From: Chiloscyllium plagiosum
Taxonomy: Eukaryota
Reading direction: 5' to 3'
Assembly: GCF_004010195.1 (NCBI RefSeq)
Contig: NW_025214133.1
Location: 1-39,568, forward strand
Length of the DNA stretch: 39,568 nt
A program made the position numbers and the translations under genes. The notes below the pieces were generated by a model. The model searched no databases. It was not told where the DNA came from and worked only from the letters and a program-made list of their open reading frames with translations. Numbering within the stretch: the first letter of the stretch is position 1; each line of letters opens with the position of its first letter. Of the stretch, positions 9,159 through 36,473 are shown one piece after another.

Positions 9159-9360
9159 TCAGGTAAAAACAATGACTGCAGATGCTGGAAAGCAGATTCT
9201 GAATTAGTGGTGCTGGAAAAAAACAGCAGTTCAGGCAGCATCCGAGAGCAGTAAAATCGACGTGTATTCCTGATGAAGGGCTTTTGCCCGAAACGTCGAT
9301 ATTACTGCTCCTCGGATGCTGCCTGAACTGCTGTGCTTTTCCAGCACCACTAATCCACAA
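9159..9360. mobile_element. Short palindromic Penelope-like (PLE-derived) non-autonomous insertion with 12-bp TSD
   Basis: TSD TTTTGAAAGACT at 9147-9158 and 9361-9372. Inverted arms at 9201-9263 and 9293-9356. Same family as 35868-35996 and 39444-39568. Confidence 0.8.
9266..9301 (+). ncRNA. Minimal type I hammerhead ribozyme motif
   Basis: CTGATGA (9270-9276), A, GGGC-TTTT-GCCC, GAAA, CGTC. Core and stem II intact; stem I weak (TC/GA). Confidence 0.7.
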
Positions 9361-9684
9361 TTTTGAAAGACTCCCACTTTCGTGCGTCCCTCTATGTGTA
9401 CACAGGTTCCCCCTAATAATTTGTTAGAAGTTCCTGCCTGATACCATCAAAATTAGCCTTGTCCTGATTTTAATTTTATCTCGTGGGCCAGGCCTAACAT
9501 CTTCCAGAAGTATTTTGAAACGAAGAGAATTACACTCACTGGTCCCAAACTGCTCTCAATCCAACATCTCAGTCAATTGAACTGCATTATTTTCTCAAAT
9601 GAAATAAAGTTGAGGCCTAGACTTGATCAACCATGGTGTTAGTGGATGGTAAGGCGGGCATTAGGTATCGAGTATCTGCATAAA

Positions 9685-13903: not shown

Positions 13904-13943
13904 CCAGAAGTTTCGTCACCGTAATAGGTAACATCTTCAGTGA
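13904..13943 (-). ncRNA. Minimal hammerhead ribozyme motif (stem III mutated)
   Basis: Minus strand: CA CTGAAGA T GTTACC-TATTAC-GGTGAC GAAA CTTC TG. Confidence 0.62.
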
Positions 13944-14426
13944 GCCTCCAGGCGACGCACTGCGGTTGATTCCTGCTTTCTATTTATATGTTTAGGCTTT
14001 CTTTGGGTTGGTGATGTCATTTCCTATGGTTCTGTCATTTCCTGTGGTGATATCATTTCCTGTTCTTTTTCTCAGGGTGTGGTAGGTAGGGTCTAACTCG
14101 ATGGCGTTGTTGATAGACATTTGGGTGAAATTCCATGTTTCTTGGAATGCTTGTGGATGTCTTGTTTTACTTGTCCTAGGATGGGTGTGTTGTCCCAGTC
14201 GAAGTGGTGTCCTTCCTTATCTGGATGGAAGGATACCAGTGAGAGAGGGTCATGCGGTTTTGTGACTAGCTGAACTCTATCGCCCAACACATCGAGTTAC
14301 ACCGCATCTACCACCCCTGAGAAAAAAGAACAGAAAATGACACCACAAGAAATGACATCACCAACCCAAAGAAAACCCAACCATAAACAAACAGCAGGAA
14401 TCAGCAGCAGTGCTTCAACTGGATGC

Positions 14427-14466
14427 CCACTGAAGCTGTTACAAAGGAGGGTGACGAAACGTCTGG
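14427..14466 (+). ncRNA. Minimal hammerhead ribozyme motif (core A9 mutated)
   Basis: CCA CTGAAGC T GTTAC-AAAGGAGG-GTGAC GAAA CGTC TGG; stem I CCA/TGG. Confidence 0.6.
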
Positions 14467-16029
14467 AAATTAACCTTCCAGATCAGCGAGAAAACCTACA
14501 ACTAGACATCTAGTTCGGCTTTATACATCAATGCCCTTCTGTGGTGTGCATATTTGCCTGTGATGAACAGATACCTAATGCTGATTTATAGATAAATGCA
14601 CTTCTGTGGTCTGCATAACTCCCCGCGCTGGACAGATTTCCATTCCCGTTTATGGATCAGTGCACTGCTATTGTTTGCATAGCTCCCTGTGCTGGGCAAG
14701 TATACACCTCCGGCTTTACAAATCAACGCGATGCTGTGAACTGCACAACTACCTGTGCTGGACAGATATCTAGTCTGGGTTTATATCTCAATGAACTGCT
14801 GTGGTCTGCATAGCTCTTGGTGCTGGACAGATATCTAGTCTGCATTTATAGATCAATATACGTTTGTGATCTACACAGCGTTGCACATTCGTCAGATTGC
14901 TTGGTTAGTCCGAGGAGAGGCTGTCCTCCATAGTCCTCCGTGCTGAACGGATATCTCCTCTGGGTTTAGGGTGTCGGGGATGGTTTGTGAGGTGAACTGA
15001 GGATGTGATGCAACTTACTATTTTATCAGATCTGGATATAGATTTTGTTCTCATTCTTTTGAACCCTCCATCTCTCACTCCATTAATGATGCTGTGTGAC
15101 CGTGTGCAAAGCATCATGCTGCTGAATACACACTGTCCTGGCAGCAGCCACAGCCTCTTCATGTAAACACAGTCAGCCATTCCCATGGGCTTTGGGTCTC
15201 CACGTAAAAGGAAAGGATGACCTGACGGACAAAGGCCGTCCCCTTGCTACAATATTCAAAACACCTTCCCCCTCGCAACTCCCCTCCGCAAACCATACGC
15301 ATCAAAGTATCCCGTGTGTACGGAGGGCAATGGGGGCACCTGGAATGCCAGGATGCAAACTATCAGGGACAATGAGCAACACTTCTGATGTCTGAACGGG
15401 TCAGAGTGAATCCTCCAGCACACAGACTGCATCGCTAAATCCTGTCAGATCTCTCCATTTATGTGTTATATAGCCTTTTCATATTGCTGAAGAAAATAAC
15501 AGGTTCAAGGTTACCCACGTTATATTCTAGCTATAATTGTTATTTAATGCTTATTCAATTAGAGATTCTCTACTTGCTCTTGCTAACTTCAGTTCATGCC
15601 TATCTTTGTTTGAATACATTTGTTCCATTTCTCGAAACAATTGATATGATTAGGAAATAGGTGAGGCGCCAGCGCTGGACACTGTGTCGCTGCAGTAGTT
15701 AACTTGCGTTAAACTGAGAAAGACTGAATATTCCTTAGTTTATGCCTGCTCCCGGCTCAGTAACCAGTCCTCACCTTATTCCTGTGTAGCAACTTTGAAA
15801 GGGAATTATTCCCTTCCATTTCCTGTGTAACAGGCATAAGAGATTAAAAAGATCTGCTTCAATTGCTGAGTAACAAACTCGAATGGCTAAATGTTTTTAT
15901 TCCGTTTCTGCTTAAAATACTTGATGGGCTGAATACCCTGCTTCAGTTTAGGTGTAATTGTGAATGGTGCTGATTATTTTGGAAATATCAATGAAGAGCC
16001 CAATTCTGACATTATGACGGAGGTAAGGC

Positions 16030-16789: not shown

Positions 16790-17030
16790 AAGCTGAATGA
16801 AAGGAGCTCTATCTGAATGTGAGTTGTATTCGCAAAACATGCTGAGTGAATCAATGTATATTTTGAGTAAAATGGATAATGGTATTAGAAAGACATGACT
16901 ACAGTGTGACTGATATTGGGAACTGAATATCTAGGACATTTTACAGCTGTGAATGTTAGAGATGAAAAGTAGGTGGGGGAAATAGCTTAATAAATTATTA
17001 CATCTACATAATCATTAAAGAGGATCTTAC
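16790..17030 (+). mobile_element. Decayed CR1 ORF2 N-terminal endonuclease remnant
   Basis: CTCTATCTGAATGTGAGTTGTATTCGC gives LYLNVSCIR (consensus LYLNARSIR). TGGGAACTGAATATC gives WELNI. A GGG.AL-like motif lies at ~16970-16990. Confidence 0.6.
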
Positions 17031-17547
17031 AAACAATGCCTGAGGTGTTATCTTTATCTTATTCATTTTTATGTTCACTGTGCCAGTTGAGTTACGTTTG
17101 GGAAGGGATTGCCACCGTGAGGCTGAGTGGGTCTCACCAAACTTAATAGGCGAAACAGCTTTACGAGTCTGTCACATTCTGTACTCGACATTTCCAGGAA
17201 CGTTCTTTTGCCAACATTTCCCGGAACATTGTGTACTGGGGATTCCTTGTAATAGATGAAAAGTAGGTGGGGGAAATAGCTTAATAAATTATTACATCTG
17301 CATAATCATTAAAGAGGATCTTACAAACAATGTCTGAGGTGTTATCTTTATCTTATTCATTTTTATGTTCACTGTGCCAGTTGAGTTACGTTTGAGAAGG
17401 GATTGCCACCGTGAGGCTGAGTGGGTCTCACCAAACTTAATAGGCGAAACAGCTTTACGAGTCTGTCACATTCTGTACTCGACATTTCCAGGAACGTTCT
17501 TTTGCCGACATTTCCCGGAACATTGTGTACTGGGGATTCCTTGTAAT
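16960..17547. repeat. Head-to-tail 294-bp tandem duplication (16960-17253, 17254-17547)
   Basis: Direct comparison shows four substitutions. The duplicate ORFs at 17071 and 17365 are offset by 294. Confidence 0.97.
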
Positions 17548-17720
17548 ATTCTACCACCGATATTCCGGGAAATTATATAACTGACATTCACAGGATCGTT
17601 CTACAAGTGCAATTCTCTGGAACATTCTATAACTACCATTCACTGGATATTCTATAACTGATATTCCCCGGAAATTTCTGTGTCAATTGTTACCTGTAAC
17701 ATCCTTGTCCAGACATTATT
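17468..17720. repeat. Highly degenerate ~25-bp tandem repeat (~GACATTCCCCGGAACATTCTATAACT)
   Basis: ACATT/ATATT..CCGGAA..ATTCT motifs recur about every 25 bp. The first units are also in the duplicated copy at 17174-17253. Confidence 0.6.
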
Positions 17721-18019
17721 TGTAAACGGTGAGACGGCTGTGAAATGAACACAAAATAAAATCCTGGGGGAAGAGATCCCAATCCAGGGAGAAGGCGATG
17801 CTGTTCTTATGATTGTGTGTTTGTGGAGGGAGCGTTACTTGTGTTTTAGGACACATTTTTGTCAGCCATTCAGACCTAACCATTTGTTTTTTCAGCTCCA
17901 GTTATTTCAATATATCTCTGAACACAGTGACACGCTTGAAAATCACACTGGCTCCCCAATCAAACTTGTCACTTTATCTAGAGGATGATACATCATGTGT
18001 TTGTTTTCCTTCCTCACAG

Positions 18020-18927
18020 TTAACATATTGACGCTCTACGTCCTACTTTATAAAGATTGTGGATTGTCTCCATGTGTCAGACGTTATCAAGGTGCCATGG
18101 CAGTGGCGGATCTACTGGTCATTATCCTCGACCTGATATTGAGGCACATTCCCATTGTTCATGACGAAGATTTTTATTTCCTGAAGTTTATCCCCGTGTG
18201 TAATATCCACGTCGTCTTGCTTTATGCAGCCACTGACTGTTGTGTCTGGTTCACTGTGGCATTCACCATTGATCGGTTTGTGGTCATTTGTTGCCAGAAG
18301 CTGAGAAGTAAATTTTGCAGTGAGAAAACGGCGGCTTTGGCTCTTGGAGCAGTGACTATGCTAAGCATTGTAAAGAACATTTTCTGGTACTTTCTACTCA
18401 CTCCACGGTATTGGCTGCAGAACACCAGGTGGTTTTGTGATGTAAAAGGATATGTTCGATACTCCCGAGTCTGGGTCGCAATCGAGTTCCTCCATCATAT
18501 TCTAACTCGGGCTCTCCCATTTCTTCTCATTCTGCTACTCAATGTATTCACCATCAGATACATTTTAGTGACCAGCAGAGCCCGCAGGATACTCCGTGTT
18601 CACACCAATGGGGACGCTCAGTATGACACCAAAATAAGAAATTGAAAAATATCCATAATTTTATTGTTTGTAATCTCGGCCAATTTCATCCTGCTATGGT
18701 CAACGTTAATGGTGCATTCTATATGGTACCGGATGTGGCATAGTGTGGAGATCGCTGTGTATCTACATCCCTTTGTGAGGGAATTGGGATTCATGTTGCA
18801 GCTCCTCAGTTGCTGCACAAACACCGCGATTTATGCCGTGACCCAGACTAAGTTCAGACAGCAGCTGAAGAATGTATTGAAACATCCCTGTACCCAAATT
18901 CATCAATCAATCAAATTCTCTCATTAA
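18020..18927 (+). pseudogene. GPR139/GPR142-like class A GPCR, main coding exon (end of TM1 to C-terminus), with one in-frame stop at 18643-18645
   Basis: Splice acceptor TTTTCCTTCCTCACAG ends at 18019. Translation: (V)NILTLYVL...CGLS...AMAVADLLVII (TM2)...DCCVWFTVAFTIDRFVVICC (TM3, DRF)...LPFLLILLLN (TM5)...KIRN*KISIILLFVISANFILLW (TM6)...LQLLSCCTNTAIYAVTQTKFR (TM7/H8). ORFs 17995-18645 and 18664-18927 share a frame. Confidence 0.88.
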
Positions 18928-19144: not shown

Positions 19145-22100
19145 AAGTGCCAAGCAGCAGAGGGAACTCTGTTGTTGGTTGCCCTTGTATTGAAGAAGCA
19201 GTGCTGGAGACAGACAAACTCAGGCCCACGTCCCGGTCATCAGGGAGTGGAGGGGACCGGGGCCTGAGCTACGAAGTAGTGTTTAAGTTACTCTGTTCAT
19301 ACTTTCACCTCTAGGTCACACACTCCGACCTGGCCTCAGCAGAATTTATCTCTCTACCATGTTCCCCCATTTCCGTTCAACCACATCCGTCTCTCTCTCT
19401 CTCTGTCTCTATTTCTCTCCCCATAACTCATTCCCCCTTGCACCCCTTCTCCCTGTCACTGCCATTCTACCAGAGTGGCAAAGAGTGCGAGAGAGAATGA
19501 GAGAGAGAGAGATGAAGAGAGGGCCAGGGAGAGAGATCGTGGGGAGGGAGGGAGAGGCAAGGTCGAGAGAGAGAGGGTGCAGAATGAGAGGTGGAGAAAG
19601 AGAGGCAGGGGAGAGCGAGATAGAGGAAGGTGGGCGCATGGAGAGCGGGGAAATGGGGAGAGGGAGGGCGCAGAGTGTTGGAGAGTGGGGACTGGTGAGA
19701 GTGAGGGTGGAGCGAGAGACGAGGACAAGAGAGGAAGATGGGGAAAACGAAGGACGGGAAGATAGAGCGGTTTGGGGAGTGAAAAGGGAGATGGAGAAGG
19801 AGAGAGCTTAGGAGATGGAAAGAGAGTGTGGATTGGGAGGGAGAGAGAAGGACCGAAGAGATAAAGAGTTTTGCGATAGGGAGAATTGGCAGATAGAGAT
19901 GTGGGACAGAGGGAGCAGAGAAAGAGTTGGGGAGAGAGAGAGAGAGACGTGTTTGCGAAAGGGTTGCAAGAGAGAGGGTGGAGAGACAGGGGGAGAGTAG
20001 GGGTGAGATAGATGTGGGGTAGAGGCAGAGACAGGGAGAAGAGAGAGAGGGATGAGAGAGTGAGCTTGAGAGGGACAAACAAGACGGGAGAGACAGGAGG
20101 AAAGAGAGAGAGGTGTGGAGAGACAGAGGTGGAGATAGAGAGAGCGTATGTGGAGAGGGAGTGGGGAAGAGAGTGAGAAAGTGGCAGAGTGAGAGAGGGG
20201 GAAACTGCTTGATGAGAGTACAGGGAGCGAGAGCGAGAAAGGAATGGGGTTAAATCAGGCGGAGTGAGAGAGACAGAGAGACGGGGAGAGAATTAACACG
20301 AGGTGCAGATAGAGAGGGATGGAGGAAGAGAGGGAGAGCGAGTTAGTGGAGTGAAAGAGAGTGCAGGATGAAGAAAAAGAGTGGAGGATAAAGAGGGAGG
20401 TAGACTGGGAGGTGATGGACAATGACGGAGAGAGAGGGAGTTGTGTAGGCAGAGAGAGAGTGGAAGGGAATTGGAGAGTGGAAGAGAGAGTGATGGGCGG
20501 TTTCAAAAAGAATGACAGAGACAGGGAGTGGGATAGAGAGAAAAAGTGGGATGGGGAAGAGCAACAGAGAGTGTGGGACGCCGTTGGAGAAATAGAAAGA
20601 TATAATAGGTGGGGTATAGAAGAGAGTGTGAGTGGGTGGGGTAGAGAGACAGAAAGAGTGGGAGATGGTAGGGAGAGAGCGTGGCAGTGGCGTACAAAGA
20701 GAAAGTGGGAGGGGCATGGAGAGAGAAAGTGATGACTGAGGGAGAGATATAAGGAGGAATTTAGAGAGAGAAAGTGGAAGAGAGAGGAAGGTGAGGCGGA
20801 TAGAGAGAGTGGTTGGGGTAGAGTGAGGGGGAAGGGGTTAGAGACAGAAGAAGGGAGTAGGTCGAATTGGACGTTTTGAAGGCTGATACAGAGCGAGGGA
20901 TGGGGAGGGGGTTGCATAGAGAGAGAGAGAAGGGAGGTGGTAAAAGACAGGGAATAGGCTGAGACAGTGGAAGGGGAAAGAGAGAGAGAGGGTGAGGGTG
21001 AGTGGGGGAAGACAGCGAGAGAGTGTGAAGAAGGCAGATTGAGACAAAGGGAGTGCGATGGAGCAGCGAGGAGAGAGAGAGGCGGAGGTTGTTGGAGGAA
21101 GATTGAGCGTGAGTGGCAGTGTAGTATAGAGAGAGAAAATGAAAGTGGAGGCCAGTAGACAGATAATAACAGTGGGAGGTTGCACAGAGGAATTGGGAAG
21201 GCAGTCGAGGGAGAGAATGAGGTTTGCGTGAGAGATGTTCGGAGGGAGATAGAGACAGAGAGGGAACACAGAGACAGTAGGAGACGAGTAGAGAGAGAAC
21301 CGGAGGGCGTTTAGAAACCGAGAGTTGGAGGAGGTACAGAGAGTGAAATACCAAGGGATATTGGGTCGAGAGAGAAAGTAGTCATTGCAGAGACAGCGAG
21401 ATGGAGGGTGTAGAGGGAGTGGGAGTGGTGAGGAGATCGAAACTGAGGCATTGGGAAGAGAGAGAGTGCGGGGAGTGGAGAGGGTCGGGTGTGTAGAGTG
21501 AGAGAGTGTGTGGGAGGGAGTAGAGGGACAGTGTTGGAGGGGTTAGAGAGTGTGTGTGAGAGGGGAAGAGAGAGAGCGTGTGGGGGTATAACGAAAGAGA
21601 GGGAGAGAGAGAGTACATGATAGTGGTATAATGAGATTGAGAAAATGGCGGTGTGAAGTGAGAGAGGGAGAGGGAGAGGGGGAGGATGCGGAGAGAGAGT
21701 GGAAGTGGAATAAGGACACAGGGAATGATAGGTAGGGGAGAGAGAGGATGGTAGAGAGTGTGGGACGTCGTAGAGAGAGAGAGGGAGAGAGTGTGAGCGG
21801 GGGCGAGAGGGAGACATTTGGAGTGAGGTAGAGAGAGAGCAGGAGTAGACACGGAGAGAAGGGGAGAGGATAGAGAGAGAAAGTTGGGGAAGAGAGAGAG
21901 TGTGGTGATGGACAAAGTTGAAGGGGTAGAGGAGGAGACAGTGGGAGGGATAAGAGAGTGCGAGGTGTGTCAAGGAAGTGAAAGTGAGAGTGGAGGGAAG
22001 AGAGAGGGATAGAGAGCATCAGGGGTATAAAGAGATAGTGGGATGAGGGTAGTGAGCGATAGGTGGAGGTAGAGAGATTGTGCGACGGTGGTAAAGAGAG

Positions 22101-24011
22101 AAAGTGAGTGAGATTGGGGTAGAGAGAATGAGTAAGTGTGAGGGAGTAGAGAGAGATGTGTGGAGGTGTTAGAGAGGGAGAGAGTGGGGAGTGTAGAGAG
22201 ACAGAATTCGGGACTGAGGTCGAGAGAGTATTTGCGAGCGCGAAAGAGAGAGAGTGGGATAAAGAGAGAATGGGGGATGTGTGGAGAGAGTTCGGGACTG
22301 GTGGAGAGATCGTGGGAGAGGGGTAGAGGGAGAAAGTGAGAGGGGTCTACAGAGAGAGTTTAGGAGCAGGTACAGAGAGAGTGGGAGAGCGGAAGAGGGA
22401 GAGAGAGACTGTTCAGTGGTAGACGGAGAAAGTGAGAGGAGTGGGGTATTCGAGAGAGAGGGAAGATGCTAGAGATAGGGAGAGTGGGAGAGAGTGAGAG
22501 AGAGAGATTGAGAGTGCGTGATGGTATAGAGAGAGGGGACAAGATGGAGAGAGAGTGGGATGGCGTTATGGAGAGAGAAGGGGAGAAAAGGGTGTTGAAT
22601 GAGAGAGACAGAGAGAGAGCGTATGACGGATCGGAAGAGAGAGTGGGAAGGTGTAAAGAGAGAGAGAGCGAGAGAGTGTGAGGCGTAGAGAGAAAAAATG
22701 GGAGAGATATAAACTGTAAGGATGGTAGATACAGGGCGTGGTAGTGCATACAAAGAGAGAGATGGGGAAAGTGGGGGGTAATAGACAAAGTGAGAGAGTG
22801 GTTGGAGTGACTAGAGAGAGGGAAGGGTGGAGTGTGTGGTAATGGGGCAGCGGGAGAGAATGGGAGTGGGTCGAGTGTCAGTGAGTGGGATGGATTTGGA
22901 ACGCGAGAGTGTGGGGTTTACGTAGAGAGAGACGGATAGAGAAAGAGACAGTGAAACGGTGTAGCAAGAGAGAAGGTGGAAGAGCGAGGGATAGTGGGAA
23001 GTGGGCAGTGAGTGTGGGGGTTGTGAGAGGGGATAGAGACAGAAAGAGAGTGGGTACAGAATGGGGAGTGGGAAGAGATATCGAGAATGGAAGAGTTTTG
23101 CACAGAGAAAGAGAGTAACAGGGGATTGGAGAGAGTGGGAGTCGAGTTAAGAGAGAATGGCTGAGACCGGGAATGGAGTACAGACGAAGAGTGGAAGAAG
23201 GAAGAGAGGGCGAGGTATGACGGTGTTGGAGGGAGATAAAGAGAGTGCGACAGTGCAGTAGAGAGAGAAAAAGTGAAAGTGAAGGGAAGTAGAGTGACAG
23301 AAAGTGGGAAGGGGTAGAGAGAATGGAAATGGTTTGGATGGAGAGAGTGGGCTTTTAGAGAGATACTATGAGTGAATAGAGAGAGAGGTTGCAGATAATG
23401 TGGGAGGCGAGTAGAGAAAGATATGGAGGTGTGTATAAAAGTCGAGTAGGAGAGGGTAGAGAGAGATAGACACAGAGAGTGAGGGGGTTGACAGAGAGTG
23501 GACGGGTGTGGGATTTAAGAGAGATTTTAGGATGGTGTAGAGAGAGAGGGTAGAGAGTATGGGAAGTGGGTAGAGAGAGAGAATGGGAGGGACTCTAGAA
23601 AGAGAGTGAGAGGATGTACAGACAGAATTAGAAATAGCGAGAGAGTGAGTGGGAAGAGGGAGAGAGAGTGGTGGAGGATGTAATGAGAGAGATTATGAGT
23701 GTGTGGAGAGAGTGTGAGATGGGTAGAAGGAGAGACTGGGAGTGGATAGATAAAGTGGGATAGCAGTACGCAGAAAGAGAGACAATCAGCGGCTTCAGAA
23801 AGTGAGTGGGGGAGTACAGAAGGTTGAGAGGGATGAGTGTGTGAAAGGAGAGGTGGTGAGTGTTGGAGTTGAGTTGAGAGAGAGAGAGAGATTGGAAGGG
23901 AGTAGGAAAAGGGAGTGGGCAGATAAAGAGATAGCGAGTGAGGGTGGGAAGGGTGCCCAGAGAGAGGTTTGGATATCGGTAGAGAAAGAGTGGGGTGGCA
24001 GAGAGAGAAGT

Positions 24012-24263
24012 CATGATTTGGAGATGCCGGTGTTGGACTGGGGTGTACAAAGTTAAAAATCACACAACACCAGGTTATAGTCCAACAGGTTTAATTGGAA
24101 GCACACTAGCTTTCGGAGCGACGCTCCTTCATCAGGTGATAGTGGAGGGCTCGTTCGTAACACAGAATTTATATCAAAACTTTACAGTGTGATGTAACAG
24201 AAATTATAAATGGAAAAATTGATTGTCTGTTTAGCCTTTCATCTGTTAGAATACAGTGAAACT
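24012..24263 (-). mobile_element. Penelope-like element terminal fragment (third family)
   Basis: Complex-sequence island in the GA tract (TGATTTGGAGATGCCGGTGTTGGACTGGGGTGTACAAAG...) carrying a hammerhead motif on the minus strand. Confidence 0.75.
24104..24138 (-). ncRNA. Minimal type I hammerhead ribozyme motif, intact
   Basis: Minus strand: CAC CTGATGA A GGAGC-GTC-GCTCC GAAA GCTA GTG. Stem I CAC/GTG, 5-bp stem II, palindromic AGCT stem III, CUA cleavage triplet. Confidence 0.8.
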
Positions 24264-27200
24264 ATCAGAGAGAGAGAGGAGTAGAGACAGAGTGAGTGAG
24301 GGTACAAAGAGAAATGGAAGGGGTGTTGAACGGGAGGGAAAGAGAGTGAGGTAAATTTGTGCAGAGAGAGAGTCATCGGGAGACGAATGAGAATGGGAGT
24401 GGAGTAAAGAGAGAGTGAGTGGAGTACAGACGGAAAGAGAGGAAGTTGGTAGAAAGAGACAGAGTGGGAGGGGGCTGGAGAGAGAAATAGAGTGCGGAGG
24501 AGTGGTGAGAGAGAATGTGGAGGGGTCGTGGCAGATATACATTGGGTTGGGGAATAGTGAGAAAGTGTGTGGGAGGGGATGAGAGAATGGAGTGTTTTAA
24601 ACATGGAACGTGGGTGAGTAGACAGCGAGAAGGAGGTGTCGAGACAGAGAGACTGGAAGGTGGTATGGAGAGAGAGTGAGGGAGAAAGAGAGTGAGAATT
24701 GCAGGGGCATATACAGAGAAAGCGAGAGAGAGGGAGGTGGAAGAGAGAGAGTGAGAGAGAAGGAGGGGTATTGAAAGAGGGAGACAGAGGAGGGTGTAGA
24801 GAGCGAGAGAGAGACAGTTGGGGCGTGGTGGAGAATGAGAGGAGGGAGTGGGTAAAGCGATAAAGAGAGGGACGGGTAAAGACAGATAGTGAGTGGGCGT
24901 AGAGAGAGTGAGATTAGTAAGTTGTGGAGAGAGAGACAGAGTGTGGAGGGGGTAAAGAGAAAAATAATTGCAGGGAGATAGAGAGGGAGGTGGTAAAAAC
25001 AGAGAGTGAGCTTGAGAGGGTAGAGGGAGCAAGGTGAGGAGGGTAGAGAGAGAGTGGGATGTGTAGAGTGAGAGATAATGTGGGAGAAGTTAGAGAGACA
25101 GTATGGGAGGAGGTGGAGAGAGCGATTGCGAGAAGGGTAGGGGAGAGCGAGTGTGGGGGTATTGAGAGAGTGAGAGAGGCGGTTATGGATAGAGAGTGGT
25201 ATTGCCGTATATGGATAGAGATTGGCAGAATTGGTAGAAAGAGAGAGAGGAAGACAGGGTCGTGGGGTTGAGCGGTTTGAGGTAGTGAGAGAGGGAGAAG
25301 GATAGTGGAAGAGGGAGGGGGTTGAGGGAGAGAGTTAGAGAGAGAATGGAAGGGTGGAAGAGTGAGACTGTGGGAGGTGGTACAGAGAGAGGTACAGAGA
25401 GAGTGGGGAAGACAAAGAGAGACAGTGGGTAGGGTGCCGAGAGAGTGGGAGGGAATAGAGAGAGAGCGGGAGAATAAGAGACCGTTTGAGACAGAGCGCG
25501 GGGTGTAGAGAGAGAGAGTGGGAGACGGGCAGAGGGAGAGATAGAGTGTGAGTGGGAGTGGGTAGAGAGAGAGTGAGTGTGAGGAGGAGAGAGTGCAATG
25601 TGGGGACGGAGTAAAGACAGAGAGAGAGAAGTGTTGTAGAGTTAGTGTCTGTGGGAGTATAGTGGGGATTGGAGTGGGAAAGGAGTAGGGACGGAGTGAG
25701 GGAGCATGATAAAGAAAGAGAATACGACGGGTTTGGAGAGAGAGTGCGGGGGAGGGAGTAGAGAGACCATGGGAAATGGGTAGAGGGAGAGCGAGAGTGG
25801 GAGGTGTAAAGAGAGTGTGAGTAGGAGAAGGTAGACAGAGAGAAAGAAGAACGGCCTAAAAGTGATAAGGAGAGACGGAAGATGGTAGGGAAAGCCAGAC
25901 TGGGTGCCAGAGAAAGACTCAGAGAGAGAGTGGAGTTAGGGTGCAGGGAGTGAATGCGAGGAATGGTGCGAGAGAGAGTTGGATAGCAGGATAGAGAGAC
26001 TGAATCGGTTTGGAGGTGTTCACAGAGAGAAATGCGTGGGTCGAGAGACGGGTGGGAAGGTGATACAGTGACTTTAGGTGGGGCAGAGAGAGTTAAAGAG
26101 GGAGACGGCAACAGATAGAGAGAGGGAGGGAGTAGAGGGCAAAAGAGGGAGAGACAGAGTGGGAGGGTGGTGGATATAGAGAGTTTCAGAGTGTACAGAA
26201 ATAGATAGAGAGAGAATGGGAGTGGATTGAGTGAGGATGGGTGGCTGTAGAGAGAGAGAGTGGAAGGGGATAGAGAGAAAGAGTGCTCGACAGAAAGCCT
26301 GTGAGGCGTGAAAGAAAGAGTGAGAAATGTATGGTGAGACAGAGTGGGATTGGGGTATAGATACAGGGAGAGGGGCAGGGGTAGGAGAGACAGTGGGAGT
26401 GGGATACGGTTAGAAGGGAGAGAGGGATGGATAGAATTTAGATAGAGAGCGACAGGGAGAGAGAGTGGTGGGTAGAGAGAGAGGTGGAGACGGGTAGAGA
26501 GACAGTGGGAGGATGTTGGAGGGAGAGAGTTTGGGGTACAGAAATATACATTGAAATTGAGAAGGTCAAGGCAAAGAGAGGCACGGGTGGGGTGGAGAGA
26601 GAGAGTGGGAGTGGTTTGAGGAAAAGGGTGGGAACGAGGTAGACAGGGCTGGGGTGGTGTAGAGGCAGAGTGTTGGTGTTAAAGAGAGAACGGGGGAGAT
26701 AGTGGTGGTGGTGTAGATAGATACAGACTGGGATAGATAAAGGAAGCGAGAGTCGGGTGTACAGAGAGATAGAGAGAATGAAGGAGAGCGAGGGAGAAGT
26801 TAGAGAGAGAGGGTCGGAGGGGATTAGAGGGAGAGAAAGAATGGGAGAGGGTACAGAGAGAGGTAGAGAGAGACTGTGAGAGGGTAGAGAAAGTGACATA
26901 GTTTGGGTCTCGAGAGAGAGTGGGAGTGCGCAAACAGAGAGATAAAGCGAGGGGTTTATGGAGAGATAGTGAGAGGGGTTAGCGCGAGAGAGCAAGAGTG
27001 AGGGGGAGTAAGAGTGGGGGTGTAGAGAGAGAGTGTGGGACAGACTAGAGAGAGACAGTGATGTGGTGGAGAGCGCGAGTGCGAGGAATGAAACAGAGAC
27101 CAAGAGCATGAGTGAGAGGGATATCGCGGGAGTGGTGTTGATGGAGAGTGTGGTAAAGAGAGAGTTTTGGGGAGTGGGGGTGTGTCGGAGAGAAACAGAG

Positions 27201-28707
27201 AGTAAAAGGGAGGAAGGGAAAGTGAGAGAGGCAGGGGATTCAGAGAGATAGTGGGACGAGGGTAGAGGAAGATAGAACGGAGCCAAAGTGGGTGAATGGA
27301 AAAGAGAGTGTGGGAGGGGTTAGAGAAATACCGAGAATTTGGGTGAAGAGAGAGAGTTGGAGGACGTAGAGAGACAGGAGAGAGAGAAGGCGTTAGAGAT
27401 AAAGACAGAGCGGGTCGGAGGGTTTAGAGAGCGATTGTGAGGCGTTAGACAGAGAAAAAAGGAGGGGGTAAAGACAGTTAGAGGTTGAGTGTCGGGTAGA
27501 GAGAGACAGACAGAGAGACAGTGCGGGGGAAGACAGAGAGAGTGGGAGGGGGATGAGACAGAGAGAAAGTGGGATGTGGTAGAGGGAGAATGATTGTGAG
27601 GGAGTAGAGAGACTTGGGGAGGTGGTAGAGAGAACATAAAAGGGAATAGAGAAAGAGAGTGGGAGTGCGGAAAAGAGCAAGAAAGAACGAGAGCTATTGG
27701 GAGTAGAGAGAGTGAGAGTGAGAGTGGTTTCGACAGAGAGAGTGTGTAGAGACAGAGAGAAAGGGAGTGGAAATAGAGTTGGAGAGAGAGTAGGAGAGGG
27801 ACGGAGGGACCGAGAGTTTGGGTGGTGTATAAGGGAGAGAGAGTTGCAAGGGGATAGAGGCAGAGTGTGAGTGGGATAGGGAGCGAGAGTGGGAGGCGGC
27901 TAGAGAGAGAGAAAACGAGGGTGTATGCAGAGAAAGAAGGAGGTGGTCCGCAGAGATAGAAGGTGGATTGGGGATGAGAGTGCGAGACAGAGACATAGAG
28001 AGAACGGGAGGGATAGAGAGGGAGAGAGAGGGTGGTGCAGAGAGAGAAAAAAAGTGGGAGGAAGGGAGAAAGAGAGAGTGAGGGAATAGAGAGAGGGAGA
28101 TGTGAGGAGTGTGTAGAGAGAAAGAGTGGAGGGTGTAGAGTGAGAGAGTAATGGATTGGAATCGGGGAGAGTGTGGGAGCTGTATAGAGAGAGAGTGGGG
28201 CAGGTGTGGAGGGAGACTGCGGGTGAGGGTGTGGAGAGAGAATGGGAGAGAGGTAGAGGGAGACGGAGATGGCGAGATGTCGATAGAGTGTGTGGCAGGG
28301 GTAGACAGAGACAAAGAAGGTAGAGCTAGAAAGAGAGATGGCGAGAGCGTGGAGGATAGGAAGAGTGAGAGTGGGAGCAGACAAAAAGACAGAGACAGAG
28401 TGGGTGGGCGTATAGAGAGAGAATGAATGGGACTGTGATAGAGAGTGGCATGGCGGGAGAGAGAGTGGGGAGGAAGGGTTGTAGAGAGAAAACAGAGAAC
28501 GAGGGAGAGAGTGATGGGGCAGAGAGAGAGAGAGAGGTGGGGTGGACAGGCAGAGAGAGAGAGAGTAGGATGGGGTAGACAGAGAGTGAGGGAAAGCGTT
28601 TTAGACAGCGAAAGGGAGGATGGGTGGTAGAGAGCGAGTGGGAGGGTATAGATAGAGAGAGGGAGAGGGAAAGAAAGAGACTGGGAAGGGTTAGAGGGAG
28701 AGAGTAG

Positions 28708-29014
28708 ATTTAGATTAGATTACATTACAGTGTGGAAACAGGCCCTTCGGCCCAACAAGTCCACACCGACCCGCCACGCACCCATATCCCTACATTTACC
28801 CCTTACTTAACACTACGGGCAATTTAGCATGGCCAATTTACCTAACCTGCACATCTTTGGACTGTGGGAGGAAACCGGAGCATCCAGAGAAAACCCACGC
28901 AAATACGGGGAGAACGTGCAAACTCTACACAGTCAGTCGCCTGAGGCGGGAATTGAACCCGATTCTCAGGCGCCGTGAAGCAGCAGTGCTAACCACTGTG
29001 CCACCGTGCCGCCC
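28708..29014 (-). mobile_element. Full-length, relatively young HE1-like tRNA-derived SINE with TSD
   Basis: Minus 5' end GGGCGGCACGGTGGCACAGTGGTTAGCACTGCTGC, B box GGGTTCAATTCC, (TCTAA)n tail. TSD GAGAGAGTAG (28698-28707) / GTGAGAGTAG (29015-29024). Confidence 0.93.
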
Positions 29015-31765
29015 GTGAGAGTAGGAGAGAGAATGGAAAGGTGTAAGAAAGAGAAAATGGGAGAGGGTACAGGGAAAGTTGGAGTGAGCGTGGGAGGGGG
29101 TAGACAAAGAGAGATTGGGATAGGTATCTAGAGGGATGAATGGAGGGGCAGAGAGAGTGGGCGAGTGAGGCAGTGAGCGAAAGAGAATGGGAGGGGAATA
29201 GACAGAATCTGTGAGGTGGGAGGAGAGACGGAGTAGGTAGACAGACAGAGTGGCAGTGATGTGCAGAAGAGTGTGCGGGGGTGTGCTCAGAGAAAAAGAG
29301 AGGGAGTGGGGGAGAGGGAGAGAGTGTGGGGAGAGAGAGAATGCATTGTGGCATGGATAGAGAGGGTTAGGGATGTGGGGAAAAGAAAGTGTGGAGGGGA
29401 AAAAGAGTGAATGAGCGTGGGGTAGAGAGAGAGTGGGAAGGTGTAAGGAGAGAGTGGGAGGACATGGAGAGAGATATGATTGTGGGAGGGAATAGAGAGA
29501 GAAAGTTAGGGTGTGTTGTGAGAGAGAGTGTGACAGGGGAAGGCGGGTGAGAGAGTGGGAGAATGTGTGCAGAGAGACAGCTTGCGAAAAGAGGAAGAAG
29601 CGCAGAGTAAGAGAGTGTGGTTGGGTGGTAAAGAGAGAGATGGTAGTGGATAGTGTCAGAGTGGCAGAGAGCTGATGTGTGGAGTGATAGACGGAGTGGG
29701 TGGGAACACGAGAGAGAGAGAAAGAGTATGTAGAGAGAGGGATGGATAGAGAGACAGAGCTTGGGAGTGGACAGAGAGAGAGAGCGGGTGAGAGAGAGAA
29801 GTTGTGTGGGTGGTGGTAGGGGATTGGGGAGTAGAGATAGAGTACGGGATTGTTAAAGAAGAAGTGAGAGGCAAATATTGGAAGTGATGTAGATACACAG
29901 AGTGTGGGGTAGAGAGAGATTCGGAGGAGTATAGTGAGATTGAGGGTTTGAAAGTGAGAGAGAGTGAGTTGGTAGAGAGCGTGTGGGAAGGATTATAGCG
30001 AAAGAGAGTTGGATAAGATACAGAGCCAGATAGAGATAGAGAGGTAGGGGGTAAAGAGAGGATGGGGTGTGTAGAGAAGGAGTAAGATGGGTAGAGAGAG
30101 AGTGTGAGTGTGGTAGAGAGAGGGAGACGTGGAGAGACAGAAAGAGGAAGTGGAGAGAAAGGAGGATGGTGTAGAGAGAGACAGAGAGAGTGGGATGGGT
30201 AGAGGGAATGATTTGTTGGATAGAAGATAGAGACAGAATTGGGGGTGTATAGGGAGACAGTCGGAGGGTGTAGAGACAGCGCGAGAGGCAGTGCGATTAG
30301 AGAGAGACTGGGAGTTATTTGAGGGATGGGAACGAAGCAGAGAGAAATGGCGTAGAGAGAGAGAGAGCTGTGGATTAAAGAGACTAAGAGGATGATAATG
30401 CTGTGGATTAGAAAGTGACAATGGGAGGAGGGAAGACAGGGAGAGAGAAGGAGGGATGGAGAGAGAGTAAGAAAGTTGGAGGGGCAGTGAGAGTAGACGG
30501 GGATAGAGAGACGCAGAGACAACGTGGGAGGGTGAAGACAGAGTGTGAGGGAAGGGAAAGATAGGGAGGTGGGGAAATAAAGACACTGAGAGTGAGGCAG
30601 TGTGTAGGGGAGAGAGAGTGTGGAGGGGAAGGATCGAGTGAATGGCCGTAGTGTACAGAGAGTGTGGGAAGGGGTCTGGAGAGAGTGTAGGCGGGTGTAG
30701 AGAGAGATATATTGGTTGGAAGGGCTTAGAGAGAGAGAGTTGGTGTGTGATGTGAGAGTGCGGGAGTGGAATGTGAAAGAAAGAGTGAGAGAATGAGTGT
30801 GGAGAGAGATGGTTGGGGAGAGAGAGAGAGACATAGCTTGGGAGTGGGTAGAGAGAGAGCGAGGGAGAGGGTTTCGAGTGAGACAGAGAGTTGGGTGTGT
30901 GGACAGAAAGAATGGCTGGGAGGGTGATGCGATTGTGAGAGCGAGCATGAGTGCATAGAGAGAGTGAAGGGTAGACAGAGACAAAGCCTGGGAGGGGAAA
31001 ATAGAGAGACGAGCGGGCAGAGATTGAGATTTTGTGAGTGGTAGAGAAAGACAGCGTGGGTGTAGAATGAGATAGTGCGGGGTTATTAAAGAAGGAGTGA
31101 GAAGCAGATATTGGGATTGGTGTAGATAGATAGAGTGTGTGGGAGGGGAAGATTCGCAGAGTATGGAGAGATTGAGAGAATGAAAATGAGAGAGTGAATT
31201 GACAGAGAGAGTGGTCAGGATCATAGAGAAATTGAGAGAAGGGAGGGGATAAAGAGACAGATGGAGAGACAGTGGGGGAAGGGAGAGAGTGGAGGTGTAG
31301 AGAGTGAGTGGGAGCGGATAAAGAGAGGTAGGAATGGAGAGAAAGAGAGAGTATGAGATTGCAGATGGTGCAGACAGAGAGAGTGGGAGGGGCACAGAGA
31401 GTGATCAGGTGGAATGTAGAGAGAGACAATGAGGCATGTATGGAGAGAGAGGGGGCAAGATTAGAGAAATAGAGAGAGAGGCATGGGAGACAAAGAGAGA
31501 GTGGGAGGCGGTGGAGAGTGTGGGATTTTATTGAGGGAGTAGGATGAGGAGGAGTGGTGAGGAGTGGAAAGAGAGAGTGCGAGTGAGTTAACGAGTGAAA
31601 AAAGAAGATAGTGGGTGTCGTGTAGATAGGTAGATCGTGGGGTAGAGGGATAAAGAAAGAGTGGGAGGGTGTACAGACAGATAGAGAGAGTGGAAGAGAG
31701 AGGGGAGAGGGTGGAGAGAGTGGGAGGGGTTTAGAGGCAGAGAGAGGGAGAGAGGCAGAGAGCCA

Positions 31766-31803
31766 GAGAGCGTGAGAGCGTGAGAGCGTGAGAGCGTGAG
31801 AGC
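31766..31803. repeat. Perfect (GAGAGCGT)n octamer microsatellite running into an 11-N gap (31804-31814)
   Basis: Direct reading. Confidence 0.9.
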
Positions 31804-34269
31804 NNNNNNNNNNNAGCAGAAGGGAGTTAGAGCGCGTGAGTAGGTTGGGGATAGAGAGAGAGGGAGAAAAGGAGGGAGGGGAAGAGAAAGAAAATGTGTC
31901 GGCAGAATAGTTTGCTTGAGATTGGAAGGGGTAGGAAGAAAGACCAAGAGAGCGGGGGGGGGTTAGTGAGGGACAGAGTGGACGTTATTAGAGAGAGTAT
32001 GTGTGAAGGGGAGAAGAGAGGGTAAGAGACAGAAAGTGGGATTGGGTTAGAGAGAGAGTGGATGTGAGGGAGTAGTGAGAGAGAGTTGTGGAGTAGGTAG
32101 AGAGACTGAGAGATTGACCGTGAGTGTGGAGGAACGTGGGGTAGAGAGAGTGAGAGTGGCGTGGAAAGACAGAGGGACAGAGCGACCGCGAGAGTAGAGG
32201 GGGTAGAGAGAAGGGGAGAGGTAGAATCTGACACAGAGAGTGTGGGCTGGGTGTGAGAAAGGGGGTAGAGAGAGACAGGGGCACGTGGGGAGGTGGTAGA
32301 GGGAGAGACATGGGCGTCTGGAGTGTGTGAGATTATGGGAGGAAGTTGATGAAGAGTGTGGACGTGGAATAGAGAGAACGCTACAGTGGAAGTTTGTCCA
32401 GCGAGAGGGATGGGGAGAGAGCGGGTGTGGGAGGGAAGTAGCGAGAGAGTGGGCGAGATTAGCGAGAGACAGTAGTGGGGTGTAGATAGAGAGAGTGCGA
32501 GGGGGTTAAAGAGAGAGAGAATTGGACTCTGGGAGTAGTGTAGATAGATAGAGAGTGGAGTAGAGAAAGTGTGATGGAGGGCTATATTGAGAGATAGAGC
32601 GTGAAAGAGAGAGGGGAAGGATTAGAGAGGGAGAGTGGCGGAGTAGAGGGAGAGAGTGGATGGATGTTAAAGAGGGAGAGTGGGAGTGGGTAGAGGAAGT
32701 GAGTAGTGGGGGTGCAGAGAAAGAGAGACAGGGTTGACGTTGAGAGTCTGAGACCGAGAGGAAGGGGATTGAGACTGACAGAGGAAGTGGGCAGAGAGAG
32801 AGAGAGTTGGAGGAGGTTGAAGAGCGAGAGTACAGGGGTGTGGAGAGAAAGAGTGTGAAGTGATTAGAGAGAAAAACAGAATGTGTCGGTGGGGATATAG
32901 ACAGAGTGGGAACGGGTTAGAGAGGGAGAGTGGGAGGGGGTAGATCGAGAGAGAAGGTGGGAGAGAGAGAGAGTGCGTGATAGAGGGGTAGAGGGAAAGC
33001 GGTTGTCAGGAAGACTGAGAGAAGTGGGTGTAGAGGGGAAGACAGCGAGACAAGAGGGGTAGAGAGAATGCAAGAGGGAGAGAGAGACGGTAGAGACAGA
33101 GAGAAAGTGACACGGTGGTAGAGAGAGTGTGTGTGGGAGTCGAGAGAGAGTTGGAGAAGGATAGCGAGAGAAAGTGGGAATGGAGTGTGAGAGAGTTTGA
33201 GGGGTTGAGAGATTGTGTGAGATGTGAATAGATAGAGAGGGAGAGGGACAGGTGATGAAGGGGCGAGTGAGAGTGGGGTTTAGACTGAGAGGGAGGGTGG
33301 AATGGGGTAGAGAGTGAAAGTGAGAGAGGAATAGAAAGAGAGCATGATTGAGGTGGAGAGACGAGAGAGTAGGTGTTAGGGGATAGAGAATGAAAGACAT
33401 TTTGAGGGGGCAGAGAAAGTAAAAGTGGGGTGTAAAGAGAGAGATTGTGGGAGAGGGAATAGTGAAGGTGGGAGTAAGGTAGGGAGAGCGCGAGAGTGGA
33501 ATGGTTTACAGAGAGACGATGGGAAAAGAGAGTGAGTTGGTGGTATAGAGAGAGGGGAAAATATATATATAGAGACATTGGTAGGTAAAGAGGCACTGGG
33601 GTGTAGAGTGAAGTGGAGGTTGGTACAGAGAAAGAGAACGAGGGAGCAAGAAGAGAGAAAGTTAGGAGAGAGAGTGTGTGAGGGTATGGAGAGAGGGTGA
33701 GAGGGGTGATAGAGAGTGAGAGTGGAAGGGGCAGAGAGAGAAAGAGTGGGAGGATTAGAGTGAGTGTGTGAAGTCTAGGGAGACGGAACGAGTGGGAGTG
33801 GGTAGAGATAGAGAGAGTGAGACGTTGGTAAAGAGAGAGATGGGGAGAAATAGAGAGAGTGGGCTGGACGTTGAAACACAGCGAGAAAGAGATAGTGAGA
33901 GGTGGAGAGTAGATTGGGAGACGTGGAGCGGGGTAGAGAGAGTTTAGGAGGATGGTATAGACAGAGCTTGAGTGGGAGTGGGTGTAGGAAAAGTGAGACC
34001 TAGATTGGGAGGGGTGAGGGGGGAACGGGAGAGGGAGGAGGGTACAAAGAGCGACAGTTGGATGAGGATAGAGAGAGTTTCGGGAAATAGATAGATGGAC
34101 CGGAAGAGGGTCAGAGCATTTTTGGGGGAGAATTGGAGTTGAATGAGAGACAGTGGAAGGGGATAGAGGAAGAGAGAATGGGAGGGTGGTAGAGAGAGAA
34201 AGAGTGGGAAGCTGCATAGAGGGAGACAGAAATGTAGAGAGAGAGAATGAGGGGAAAAGAGTCAGAGAG

Positions 34270-36473
34270 GAACATAGAACATAGAACATTACAGCGCAGT
34301 ACAGGCCTTTCGGCCCTCGATGTTGCGCCGACCTGTCATACCAATCTGAAGCGCATCTAACCTACACTATTCCATGTACGTCCAGGCGCCTGTCCAATGA
34401 CAACTTAAATGTACTTAAAGTTGGCGAATCTACTACCGTTGCAGGCAAAGCATTCCATACCGTTACTACTCTGAGTAAGGAAACTACCTCTGACATCTGT
34501 CCTATATCTATCAGCCCTCAATCTATGCCCCCTCGTGCTCGCCGTCACCATACTTAGAAAAAGGCTCTCCCTGTCCACCCTATCTAACCCTCTGATTATC
34601 TTATATGTCTCTATTAAGTCACCTCTCACCTTTCTTCTCCCCAACGAAAACTGTCTCAAGTCCCTCAGCCTTTCCTCGTAAGACCGTTCCTCCATACCAG
34701 GCAACATCCTAATAAATCTCCTCTGCACCTTTTTCAAAGCTTCCACATCCTTCATATAATGCGTTGACCAGAACTGTACACAATACTCCAAGTGCGGCCG
34801 CACCAGAGTTTTGTACAGCTGTAACATAACCTGCTGGTTCTGGAACTCGATCTCTCTATTAATAAAAGCGAAAACCCTGTATGCCTTCTTAACAACCCTG
34901 TAAATCTGGGTGGCAACGTTCAAGGATCTGCGTACCTGGACACCGAGATCTCTCTGCTCATCTACACTACCAAGAATCTTACCATTAGCCCAGTACTTTG
35001 CATTCTGGTTACTCCGACCAAAGTGAATCACCTCATTCTTGTCCCCATTAAACTCCATTTGCCACCTCTCAGCCCATCTCTGCTGCTTATCTATGTCTCT
35101 CTGTAACCTACAACATCCTTCATCACTATCCATAACTCCACCGACCTTAGTGTCGTCTGCGAATTTACTAACCCACCCTTCTATGCCGTCATCCAGGTCG
35201 TTTATACAAATGACGAACAGCAGTGTACCCAACACCGACCCTTGCGGTGCACCACTAACAACTGGACTCCAAGATGAACATTTTCCATCAACCACCAATC
35301 TCTGTCTTCTTTCAGCAATCCAATTACTTTTCCAAACTGCTGCACCTCTCATAATCTCATTCCTCCGCATTTTGTACAGTAGCCGACTGTGGTGAACCTT
35401 ATCAAACGCCTTGCTGAAATCCATATACACCACATCAACCGATTTACTCTCATCTAACTGTTTGGCCACCTTCTCAAGTACTCAATAAGATTCGTGAGGC
35501 ACAATAAACTTTCACAAAACCGTGCTGTCTATCCCTAATGAAATTATTCTTTTACAGATGATTATAAATCCGACATCTTAGAACCTTTTCCACCACTTTA
35601 CCAACAGCTGAAGTAAGGCTTACTGCTCTATAATTACCAGGGTTGTATCTACTCCCCTTCTTGAACAGGGGAACCTCATTTGCTATCTTCCAGTCTTCTG
35701 GCACTCTTCTTGTACACAATGATGATTTAAAGATCAATGCCAAAGGCTTGGCAATCTCCTCCCTGACTTCCTTGAGGATCCGAGGATAAATCCCATCCGG
35801 CCCGGGGAACTTATCTATTTTGACACTCTGCAGGATTTCTAATACCTCTTCCTTGTGAACCTCAATCTATTCCTGATGAACGACTTTTGCCCGAAAGGTC
35901 GATATAACTGCTCCTCGGATGCTGCCTGAACTGCTGTACTCTTCCAGCACCACTAATCCAGAATCTGGTTTCCTGCATCTGCAGTCATTGTTTTTGCCTC
36001 AATCCCACGTAGTCTAGTAGCCTGTATCTCAGTATCCTCCACGACAACATTTTCCTTTTCCTCGAATGAATATTGTCGAAAAATATTAATTTAGTGCTTC
36101 CCCTATCTCCTCTGACTCCACACACAACTTCCCACTACTATCCTTGATTGGCCCAAATCTTACTCTTGTCATTATTTTATTCCTTAAATACAGAAAGAAA
36201 GCCTTTGGGTTTACCCTGATCCTAACCGCCAACAACTTCTTATGTCTCCTGCTGGTTCTCTGAGCTCTCTCGTTAGGTCTTTCCTGGCTACTTTGTAACC
36301 CTCAAGCTCCCAAACTGAGTCTTCTGTTCTCACCCTAACATAAGCTTTCTCTTTCTCTTGACCAGAGAATCCACTTCCTTCGTAAACCACGGCTCCCGCA
36401 CTCTACATCTTCCTCCCTGCCTGAAAGATGGATACTTATATAGGACACTCAGGAGCTTTACCTTGAATAAGCT
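34270..36473 (-). mobile_element. 5'-truncated CR1-type LINE with a well-preserved RT domain
   Basis: ORF 34405-35469 reads VDVVYMDFSKAFDKV...PQGSVLG...SKFADDTKVGG...LYKTLVRPHLEYCVQFW. ORF 35552-35743 reads WKIANEVPLFKKG...NYRAVSLTS. Tail (AACATAG)n on +. Confidence 0.97.
35868..35996 (+). mobile_element. PLE-derived short insertion with degenerate hammerhead motif and 8-bp TSD
   Basis: TSD CCTCAATC at 35860-35867 and 35997-36004. CTGATGAA-CGACTTTTGCCC-GAAAGGTC at 35873-35900, with stems II and III mutated. Confidence 0.85.

What the first reader, a model, noticed from the sequence alone, without database searches (positions are those of the whole stretch)
24104..24138. Intact minimal hammerhead ribozyme hidden in the GA tract
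Seen: the minus strand reads CAC-CUGAUGA-A-GGAGC(GUC)GCUCC-GAAA-GCUA-GUG. All core nucleotides are present, with a 3-bp stem I, a perfect 5-bp stem II and a stem III reduced to the palindrome AGCU. Established: Penelope-like retroelements carry minimal type I hammerheads with a palindromic stem III, thought to work as dimers. Inference: this is the best-preserved ribozyme here, with predicted cleavage after CUA (between + coordinates 24107 and 24106).
Basis: partly seen in the sequence, partly recalled or inferred. Interest (0 to 1): 0.7.

Follow-up and report, generated by a model that had tools for sequence, protein, structure and literature searches.

The report
Penelope-type minimal hammerhead, lone copy
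This is a real minimal hammerhead (self-cutting RNA) motif of a kind already described in Penelope-like jumping genes; it sits in a short, lone, probably inert piece of a very common repeat that landed in a GA-rich stretch, so it is ordinary.

Summary
The 35-nt motif is present exactly as described on the minus strand (24138-24104), and the predicted cut after CUA lies between 24107 and 24106. It is more than chance: a general descriptor finds 4 motifs in the window against 0.01 per shuffle, and only this one passes the strict version. It is not part of the GA tract. It lies inside a 257-bp insertion (24009-24265) bounded by a 10-bp direct repeat, a member of a high-copy dispersed family (31,590 contigs of one run match it; three organism labels hold it). 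It meets all four sequence hallmarks of the minimal hammerheads of metazoan Penelope-like elements. The same motif, bar two loop bases, occurs in two marine contigs beside Penelope-type endonuclease and reverse-transcriptase remains. The link to an autonomous element in this genome was not shown. This copy is probably inert: no AGCU partner in the window, stem I lost in natural flanks, a weak CUA triplet, and it was itself copied across the cut site. Cleavage and expression were not tested. Known kind, low interest. One lead: A-to-G changes at core adenosines in two probable RNA data sets.

The parts
24104..24138 (-). Minimal type I hammerhead motif: 3-bp stem I, core CUGAUGA, extra A, 5-bp stem II with 3-nt loop, GAAA, palindrome AGCU, A17
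   Evidence: Sequence; shuffle test
24106..24107 (-). Predicted cleavage site, after C16.2-U16.1-A17
   Evidence: Hammerhead numbering; cutting not tested
24108..24111 (-). AGCU palindrome (15.1-16.1), can form stem III only with a second copy
   Evidence: Sequence; AGCU/AGCU duplex -2.5 kcal/mol
24009..24265 (-). 257-bp insertion of a high-copy dispersed repeat, read as a truncated or solo Penelope-like terminal repeat (pLTR)
   Evidence: Composition; contig depth confined to about 24007-24260; direct repeat at both ends. The pLTR label is inference
24009..24103 (-). 3' part of the element with a long hairpin; 3' ends of family copies cluster at 24012-24017
   Evidence: Loose ends with unrelated flanks, agreement 0.37-0.41, in three runs; fold
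24139..24265 (-). Upstream part of the repeat, AT-rich, no long reading frame, held at lower depth; 5 changes private to this copy in 24139-24216
23999..24008 (+). Candidate target-site duplication CAGAGAGAGA, left copy
   Evidence: random pairs of tract points give a repeat of 10 bp or more in 0.4% with 4 nt of slack
24266..24275 (+). Candidate target-site duplication CAGAGAGAGA, right copy

Best explanation
The motif is the minimal, dimer-type hammerhead of a Penelope-like retrotransposon family, carried in a lone truncated terminal-repeat copy. In the parent element, two copies in one tandem transcript would pair through their AGCU palindromes to make stem III and cut after A17, probably weakly and helped by the element's protein (inferred from the literature). 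This copy arose by target-primed reverse transcription that began in the tail near 24009-24017, ran across the uncut (or re-ligated) ribozyme, and stopped about 127 nt beyond it, leaving a 10-bp duplication in the GA tract (ends, span and repeat shown; mechanism inferred). Alone in its locus it most likely does not cut (inferred).
For: All four hallmarks listed by Cervera and De la Pena 2014 that can be read from one sequence or family are present: core, extra base between 9 and 10.1, G10.1-C11.1, palindrome at 15.2-16.2. High-copy dispersed family: 31,590 of 13,220,409 contigs in X15, 15,669 of 2,290,627 in X1, 4,149 of 953,466 in X2, with one shared end and unrelated flanks. Depth falls away from the 3' end, as expected for 5'-truncated copies. 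Joints to the opposite strand occur, as described for Penelope elements. Two marine contigs carry the motif with only the loop changed. There stem I extends to 5 bp outside the search pattern. L002 has upstream a C-terminal frame with CX4CxxC whose nearest Atlas clusters are GIY-YIG proteins (score 0.97; family on 23-34% of members), and L001 has an RT fragment (RVT_1, E 1.5e-05, below Pfam's cut-off). Inertness: no second AGCU motif in the window; stem I pair probability 0.84-0.89 for the bare 35-mer but 0.02 or less in all 5 longer contexts; double hammerhead -16.3 kcal/mol against -18.2 for two monomers and -30.3 for a stem-II duplex; CUA is in the second-lowest triplet class (PMC8879150, passage). 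In X15 core G12 and C11.1 decay like other CpG sites (6.3% and 11.7%).
Against: No RT or endonuclease frame was tied to this family in this genome: no genome is held and the island has no long frame. The 33/35 identity with L001/L002 is set by my search pattern; their flanks are barely alike (14/40 upstream, 6/40 downstream, ungapped), and L001 and L002 are near-identical over 677 nt, so they count once. The RT piece in L001 lies on the opposite strand. No compensatory change was seen inside this family at 4% or more. This copy shows 0 private changes in 24044-24138 against 5 in 24139-24216 (Fisher p 0.017, chosen after the fact), which could mean constraint, although 0 of 5 in the 35-mer alone is unremarkable (p 0.32). 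Folding energies leave out the tertiary core and proteins.
Confidence: 0.82

Rival explanations
1. The lone copy is cut in cells in trans: with so many family copies in transcripts, two RNAs meet through AGCU, helped by element protein or chaperones, and cut host transcripts that carry the repeat.
For: Core fully intact and family very abundant. The anole Penelope hammerhead cut only when the element's protein was added (PMC11167929).
Against: A 4-bp trans helix of -2.5 kcal/mol, stem I lost in context, no energetic gain for the dimer. The same paper found no reads ending at the cut site. 8 of 9 frog dimer elements did not cut in vitro (bioRxiv 2026.07.22.740005). The motif is antisense to the nearest host frame, 17989-18645 +.
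Confidence: 0.08
2. The 257-bp unit is a separate non-autonomous element (retrozyme- or SINE-like) that replicates through its own ribozyme, not merely a truncated Penelope end.
For: No coding remains, a candidate 10-bp duplication, very high copy number. Several long pieces end at 24133-24138, the front edge of the ribozyme (table 8).
Against: Not tandem: no tandem array over the island and no second copy in the window. The length of copies varies, and the 5' end of this copy lies 127 nt past the ribozyme. Animal retrozymes are themselves reported to derive from pLTRs, so the two readings overlap.
Confidence: 0.12
3. Chance match to a short consensus.
For: Only 35 nt; no Rfam hit; folding z-score only -1.32.
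Against: Shuffle tests. Among 29 loose-pattern hits in prokaryote and viral collections, 1 had a stem II of 4 bp or more and none had stem I of 3 bp, unlike this motif. Other families in the window keep the same fold with other stems and an ACGU palindrome.
Confidence: 0.01

Closest known systems
Minimal hammerheads (min-HHR) of metazoan Penelope-like elements (Cervera and De la Pena 2014, PMC4209133; read: parts 1-2 of 4 of the text, parts 1-2 of 3 of the supplementary PDF)
   Same: Type I topology, core, extra base after A9, G10.1-C11.1, palindromic 15.1-16.1 with no loop, short stem I, mostly solo copies in a high-copy family. The AGCU palindrome occurs in 5 of the 56 rows of their Fig. S3 without added loop bases (e.g. 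S. mansoni 1, painted turtle).
   Different: None of the 56 rows has this sequence and none is from a cartilaginous fish. AGCU followed by A17 with no added loop bases is not among them. Association with a full element was not shown here.
PAc (Poseidon) hammerhead of the green anole (Frangieh et al. 2024, PMC11167929; read: parts 1-2 of 4)
   Same: pLTR hammerhead followed about 100 nt downstream by clustered element ends in a stem-loop region; inserted copies span the uncut ribozyme.
   Different: In PAc the reading frame starts inside the ribozyme; no such frame was found here. The nearest protein context for this motif (L002) has the CX2-5CxxC linker that Poseidon lacks (PMC8557442, passages).
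Non-LTR retrozymes of animals (bioRxiv 10.64898/2026.07.22.740005, read: parts 1-3 of 5; PMC7229834, search listing only)
   Same: Non-coding 250-350-nt unit with a type I hammerhead, pLTR-related; solo 'monomers' are described as dispersed derivatives.
   Different: Retrozymes are defined by tandem units with two or more hammerheads; this is a single copy.

Membership tests
min-HHR of metazoan Penelope-like elements | Core CUGANGA...GAAA...UH in type I order | tested here: met
min-HHR of metazoan Penelope-like elements | [quoted passage not shown] | tested here: met
   A at 24128; feature
min-HHR of metazoan Penelope-like elements | G10.1-C11.1 pair closing stem II | tested here: met
   24127 with 24115
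min-HHR of metazoan Penelope-like elements | Palindromic 15.1-16.1, no stable monomer stem III | tested here: met
   AGCU at 24111-24108
min-HHR of metazoan Penelope-like elements | Member of a large dispersed genomic family | tested here: met
   thousands of contigs in each of three runs, shared 3' end with unrelated flanks; depth is not a copy number
min-HHR of metazoan Penelope-like elements | Compensatory changes within the family | tested here: inconclusive
   None at 4% or more (only CpG, loop and A>G/T>C changes); stems differ yet pair between the window's families
min-HHR of metazoan Penelope-like elements | Lies in the pLTR of an element with RT and GIY-YIG endonuclease | tested here: inconclusive
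   No genome held; shown only indirectly through L001/L002
min-HHR of metazoan Penelope-like elements | Site-specific cleavage as dimer, not as monomer | not testable with these tools
   Needs in vitro transcription
Neptune/Nematis-type Penelope-like elements | CX2-5CxxC linker before a C-terminal GIY-YIG domain | tested here: inconclusive
   Present in L002, another organism; no protein of the window's family was available
Non-LTR retrozymes | Tandem units, at least two with complete hammerheads | tested here: not met
   No tandem array over the island; only the self-match in the window. Tandem arrays elsewhere in the genome not tested
Canonical type I hammerheads (Rfam families) | 6-bp stem I with loop contacts; match to a curated model | tested here: not met
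   Stem I is 3 bp; no Rfam match up to E 10

The most novel reading that the evidence does not exclude
Transcripts of this family, folded into long hairpins by inverted copies, are A-to-I edited at the ribozyme's own core (A15.1 and A17), which would switch the hammerhead off. Alternatively, RNAs with dead cores survive because intact ones are cut. Either way this family would offer an in vivo test of whether Penelope minimal hammerheads cut in vertebrate cells. Basis: A17>G 52% and A15.1>G 43% of depth in X2, 5% each in X1, against 2.4% and 0.9% in X15. A>G/T>C changes make up 12 of 32 and 12 of 28 listed places in X1 and X2 against 4 of 25 in X15. The runs are from different organism labels, their RNA status is a guess, and a few strongly expressed copies could give the same picture.
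Probability: 0.12. Interest if true: 0.55.

Novelty: new member of a known kind. Interest (0 to 1): 0.14.

Why it matters
By itself it matters little: it adds one more family member to a class described in 2014, and this copy is one of very many. Its value is as material. A very abundant family with an intact consensus core allows two open questions to be tested with public data: whether these minimal hammerheads ever cut in cells, and whether host RNA editing disables them.

Tried and rejected
Rfam, whole window and island: no hammerhead hit; the curated models evidently do not score this minimal form. Own-genome search: no genome held, so no copy count and no search for the autonomous partner. 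Exact-motif scans of viral and prokaryote collections: 0 hits. Looser scans gave 21 and 8 hits, none with both stems, rejected as chance. Expression: no RNA holder listed; the one raw RNA run laid, X21, gave 0 of 8,328,510 reads (about 6% of the run), which the tool marks as no test; neither counts for or against. No place with many molecule ends was found, but contigs cannot show ends. Opposite-strand joints at 24104-24105, next to the cut site (4 of the 15 rows shown, 39 more not shown), were considered as a trace of cleaved templates but left open: single contigs, and a 2-bp deletion variant at 24102 breaks alignments there. The MAFFT alignment of 7 motifs was misaligned, so no pair count was run on it. 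Pfam found nothing for the L002 frame; the PDB search for the L001 RT piece found nothing; the Atlas gave RVT_1 on only 19% of the top cluster, so its Penelope type rests on my reading of its motifs. Lunse et al. 2017 was not held; it is known to me only through the review PMC6765202 (passages). Literature searches for hammerhead + cartilaginous fish (1 unrelated paper), shark + Penelope + Neptune (1 unrelated), bamboo shark + Penelope (2 listed, not read) and A-to-I editing + Penelope + hammerhead (0) found no description of this family; the library lacks most subscription journals, and Repbase/Dfam were not searchable. Supplements of the bioRxiv retrozyme paper, which lists families for one cartilaginous fish, were not seen and may hold this family.

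Full report
Observation. The minus strand of 24104-24138 reads CAC CUGAUGA A GGAGC GUC GCUCC GAA AGCU A GUG. In standard numbering all core positions are present, an extra A lies between A9 and G10.1, stem II is 5 bp with a 3-nt loop, positions 15.1-16.1 are the palindrome AGCU, position 17 is A, and the predicted cut lies between 24107 and 24106. A general descriptor finds 4 motifs in the window (+9270, +39448, -24135, -13940) against a mean of 0.01 in 300 local shuffles; the strict form finds only this one, and 1 of 300 shuffles gave any hit. Rfam does not detect it, and the bare fold is not unusually stable (z -1.32).

Context. The motif is not GA-tract sequence. It lies in an island of 54% purine in a tract of 80%. 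The island has no tandem structure, no second copy in the window and no long reading frame. It is bounded by an exact 10-bp direct repeat at 23999-24008 and 24266-24275; random pairs of points in the tract give such a repeat in 0.4% of trials with 4 nt of slack. I read this as a target-site duplication around a 257-bp insertion, 24009-24265; 8-10-bp duplications are reported for rotifer Penelope elements (PMC3846280, passages). The window looks like vertebrate intergenic DNA: a 7tm_1 frame and an RVT_1 frame. The label 'shark-like' comes from earlier AI notes on this genome and was not tested by me.

Family. Nineteen of 24 listed runs, under three organism labels and 8 studies, hold the island or part of it. 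Laying 4 of them at 85% likeness placed 31,590 contigs of X15, 15,669 of X1 and 4,149 of X2 on it, and no read of X21 (no test). Depth is confined to about 24007-24260. At 24012-24017 many contigs run off into unrelated sequence (agreement 0.37-0.41), the mark of a shared element end at many sites. Depth over the ribozyme is 8-22% of the peak near 24073-24083 and falls again to 5-30% of that just upstream; the tool warns that depth is no copy number, and a subfamily with other upstream sequence contributes to the drop. In X15 the only variants at 4% or more inside the 35-mer are at CpG sites and the loop, including G12 (6.3%) and C11.1 (11.7%), so copies decay after insertion without protection of the core. 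No compensatory change appears at that threshold. This copy has 5 private changes in 24139-24216 and none in 24044-24138 (p 0.017, post hoc; p 0.32 for the 35-mer alone); a young copy from a minor source element fits this as well as selection does.

Link to Penelope-like elements. A metagenome scan found 2 contigs with the same motif and another loop. The identity is fixed by the pattern, the two contigs are 99.6% alike over 677 nt, and the flanks are barely like the window's. What is independent: stem I there extends to 5 bp, L002 carries 750 nt upstream and in the same direction the end of a frame with CCNTKCKTC whose nearest Atlas clusters are GIY-YIG proteins, and L001 carries an RT fragment on the opposite strand. 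A CX2-5CxxC linker before a C-terminal endonuclease marks Neptune and Nematis elements (PMC8557442, passages). For the window's own family no protein could be reached, since no genome is held.

How it most likely works. Shown: anatomy, ends, family abundance, and the fact that this copy spans the cut site, so its template RNA was uncut or re-ligated. From papers: min-hammerheads did not cut as monomers and cut weakly as dimers (PMC4209133); the anole element's hammerhead cut only with its protein, cutting was not needed for insertion, and reverse transcription began inside a stem-loop downstream (PMC11167929); 1 of 9 frog dimer elements cut in vitro. Inferred: in a tandem transcript of the parent element two AGCU palindromes pair to complete stem III and allow cutting after A17. 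For this lone copy I expect no activity: no AGCU partner in the window (the neighbours carry ACGU or ACUU), stem I probability 0.02 or less once flanks are added, no energetic gain for the double hammerhead (-16.3 against -18.2 kcal/mol for two monomers), and CUA ranks low among triplets (PMC8879150). These energies ignore tertiary contacts and proteins.

Comparison. It works like, and by every sequence feature tested is, a min-HHR of metazoan Penelope-like elements; position in a pLTR of a full element and dimer cleavage remain unshown. It is not a retrozyme by the tandem criterion and not a canonical type I hammerhead. None of the 56 motifs in Fig. S3 of the 2014 paper is this sequence or from a cartilaginous fish, and four searches found no paper on this family, but repeat libraries and preprint supplements were not available. 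Of 187 earlier notes on this genome, 104 fit a look-up for these words; they are unchecked AI notes, not support, but they show how common such motifs are here.

Lead. In the two runs guessed to be RNA, A>G/T>C changes are over-represented (12 of 32 and 12 of 28 places, against 4 of 25 in X15). In 14 of 15 such rows each run exceeds X15, against 3 of 10 and 1 of 10 for C>T/G>A rows; rows were listed only if they reached 4% in some run, which favours such differences. In X2 they hit A17 (52%) and A15.1 (43%). G at 17 blocks cutting (PMC3138052, passages). This looks like A-to-I editing of hairpin transcripts, but the organisms differ and no matched DNA was available.

Verdict. Real, correctly described, new member of a known kind, probably inert at this locus. 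Interest 0.14.

Noticed in passing
window 9263-9303 + and 39441-39481 +: Two copies of another hammerhead family (4-bp stem II, ACGU palindrome, C17, 2-bp stem I); the first sits at the centre of a palindromic insert with 51-nt arms at 9196-9246 and 9311-9361.
   Followed up: partly
window 13900-14480: Penelope-like remnant with two inverted, decayed hammerheads (-13940 palindrome broken; +14430 A9 changed) around broken frames that resemble the end of a GIY-YIG domain (my reading of the motifs).
   Followed up: partly
window 24044-24216, runs X1 and X2: Excess of A>G/T>C variants in runs guessed to be RNA, including core positions A15.1 and A17; possible A-to-I editing.
   Followed up: partly
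window 24133-24138 and 24104-24105: Family contigs often end, or join to the opposite strand, at the front edge of the ribozyme and just past the cut site (tables 5 and 8).
   Followed up: partly
window 19400-34300: About 15 kb of strongly skewed, degenerate GA-rich sequence (GC skew about 0.78) with a loose 20-25-nt period, interrupted by this insert and by another at about 28700-29000.
   Followed up: no
window 11681-14909: Diverged 65-bp tandem satellite, interrupted by the Penelope-like remnant.
   Followed up: no
window 17989-18645 +: 218-aa open frame matching rhodopsin-family 7tm_1 (E 2.9e-10), apparently incomplete; a 294-bp tandem duplication lies upstream at 16960-17548.
   Followed up: no
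window 34405-35481 - and 38033-38482 -: LINE-type reverse-transcriptase remains (RVT_1, E 1.2e-16 for the first); CR1-like by my recollection of the motifs.
   Followed up: no
L002 1-109 and 983-1091; L001 619-727: A 109-nt piece at the start of the endonuclease-side frame recurs inverted upstream of the hammerhead, a rearranged Penelope-like structure in an unrelated marine contig.
   Followed up: no
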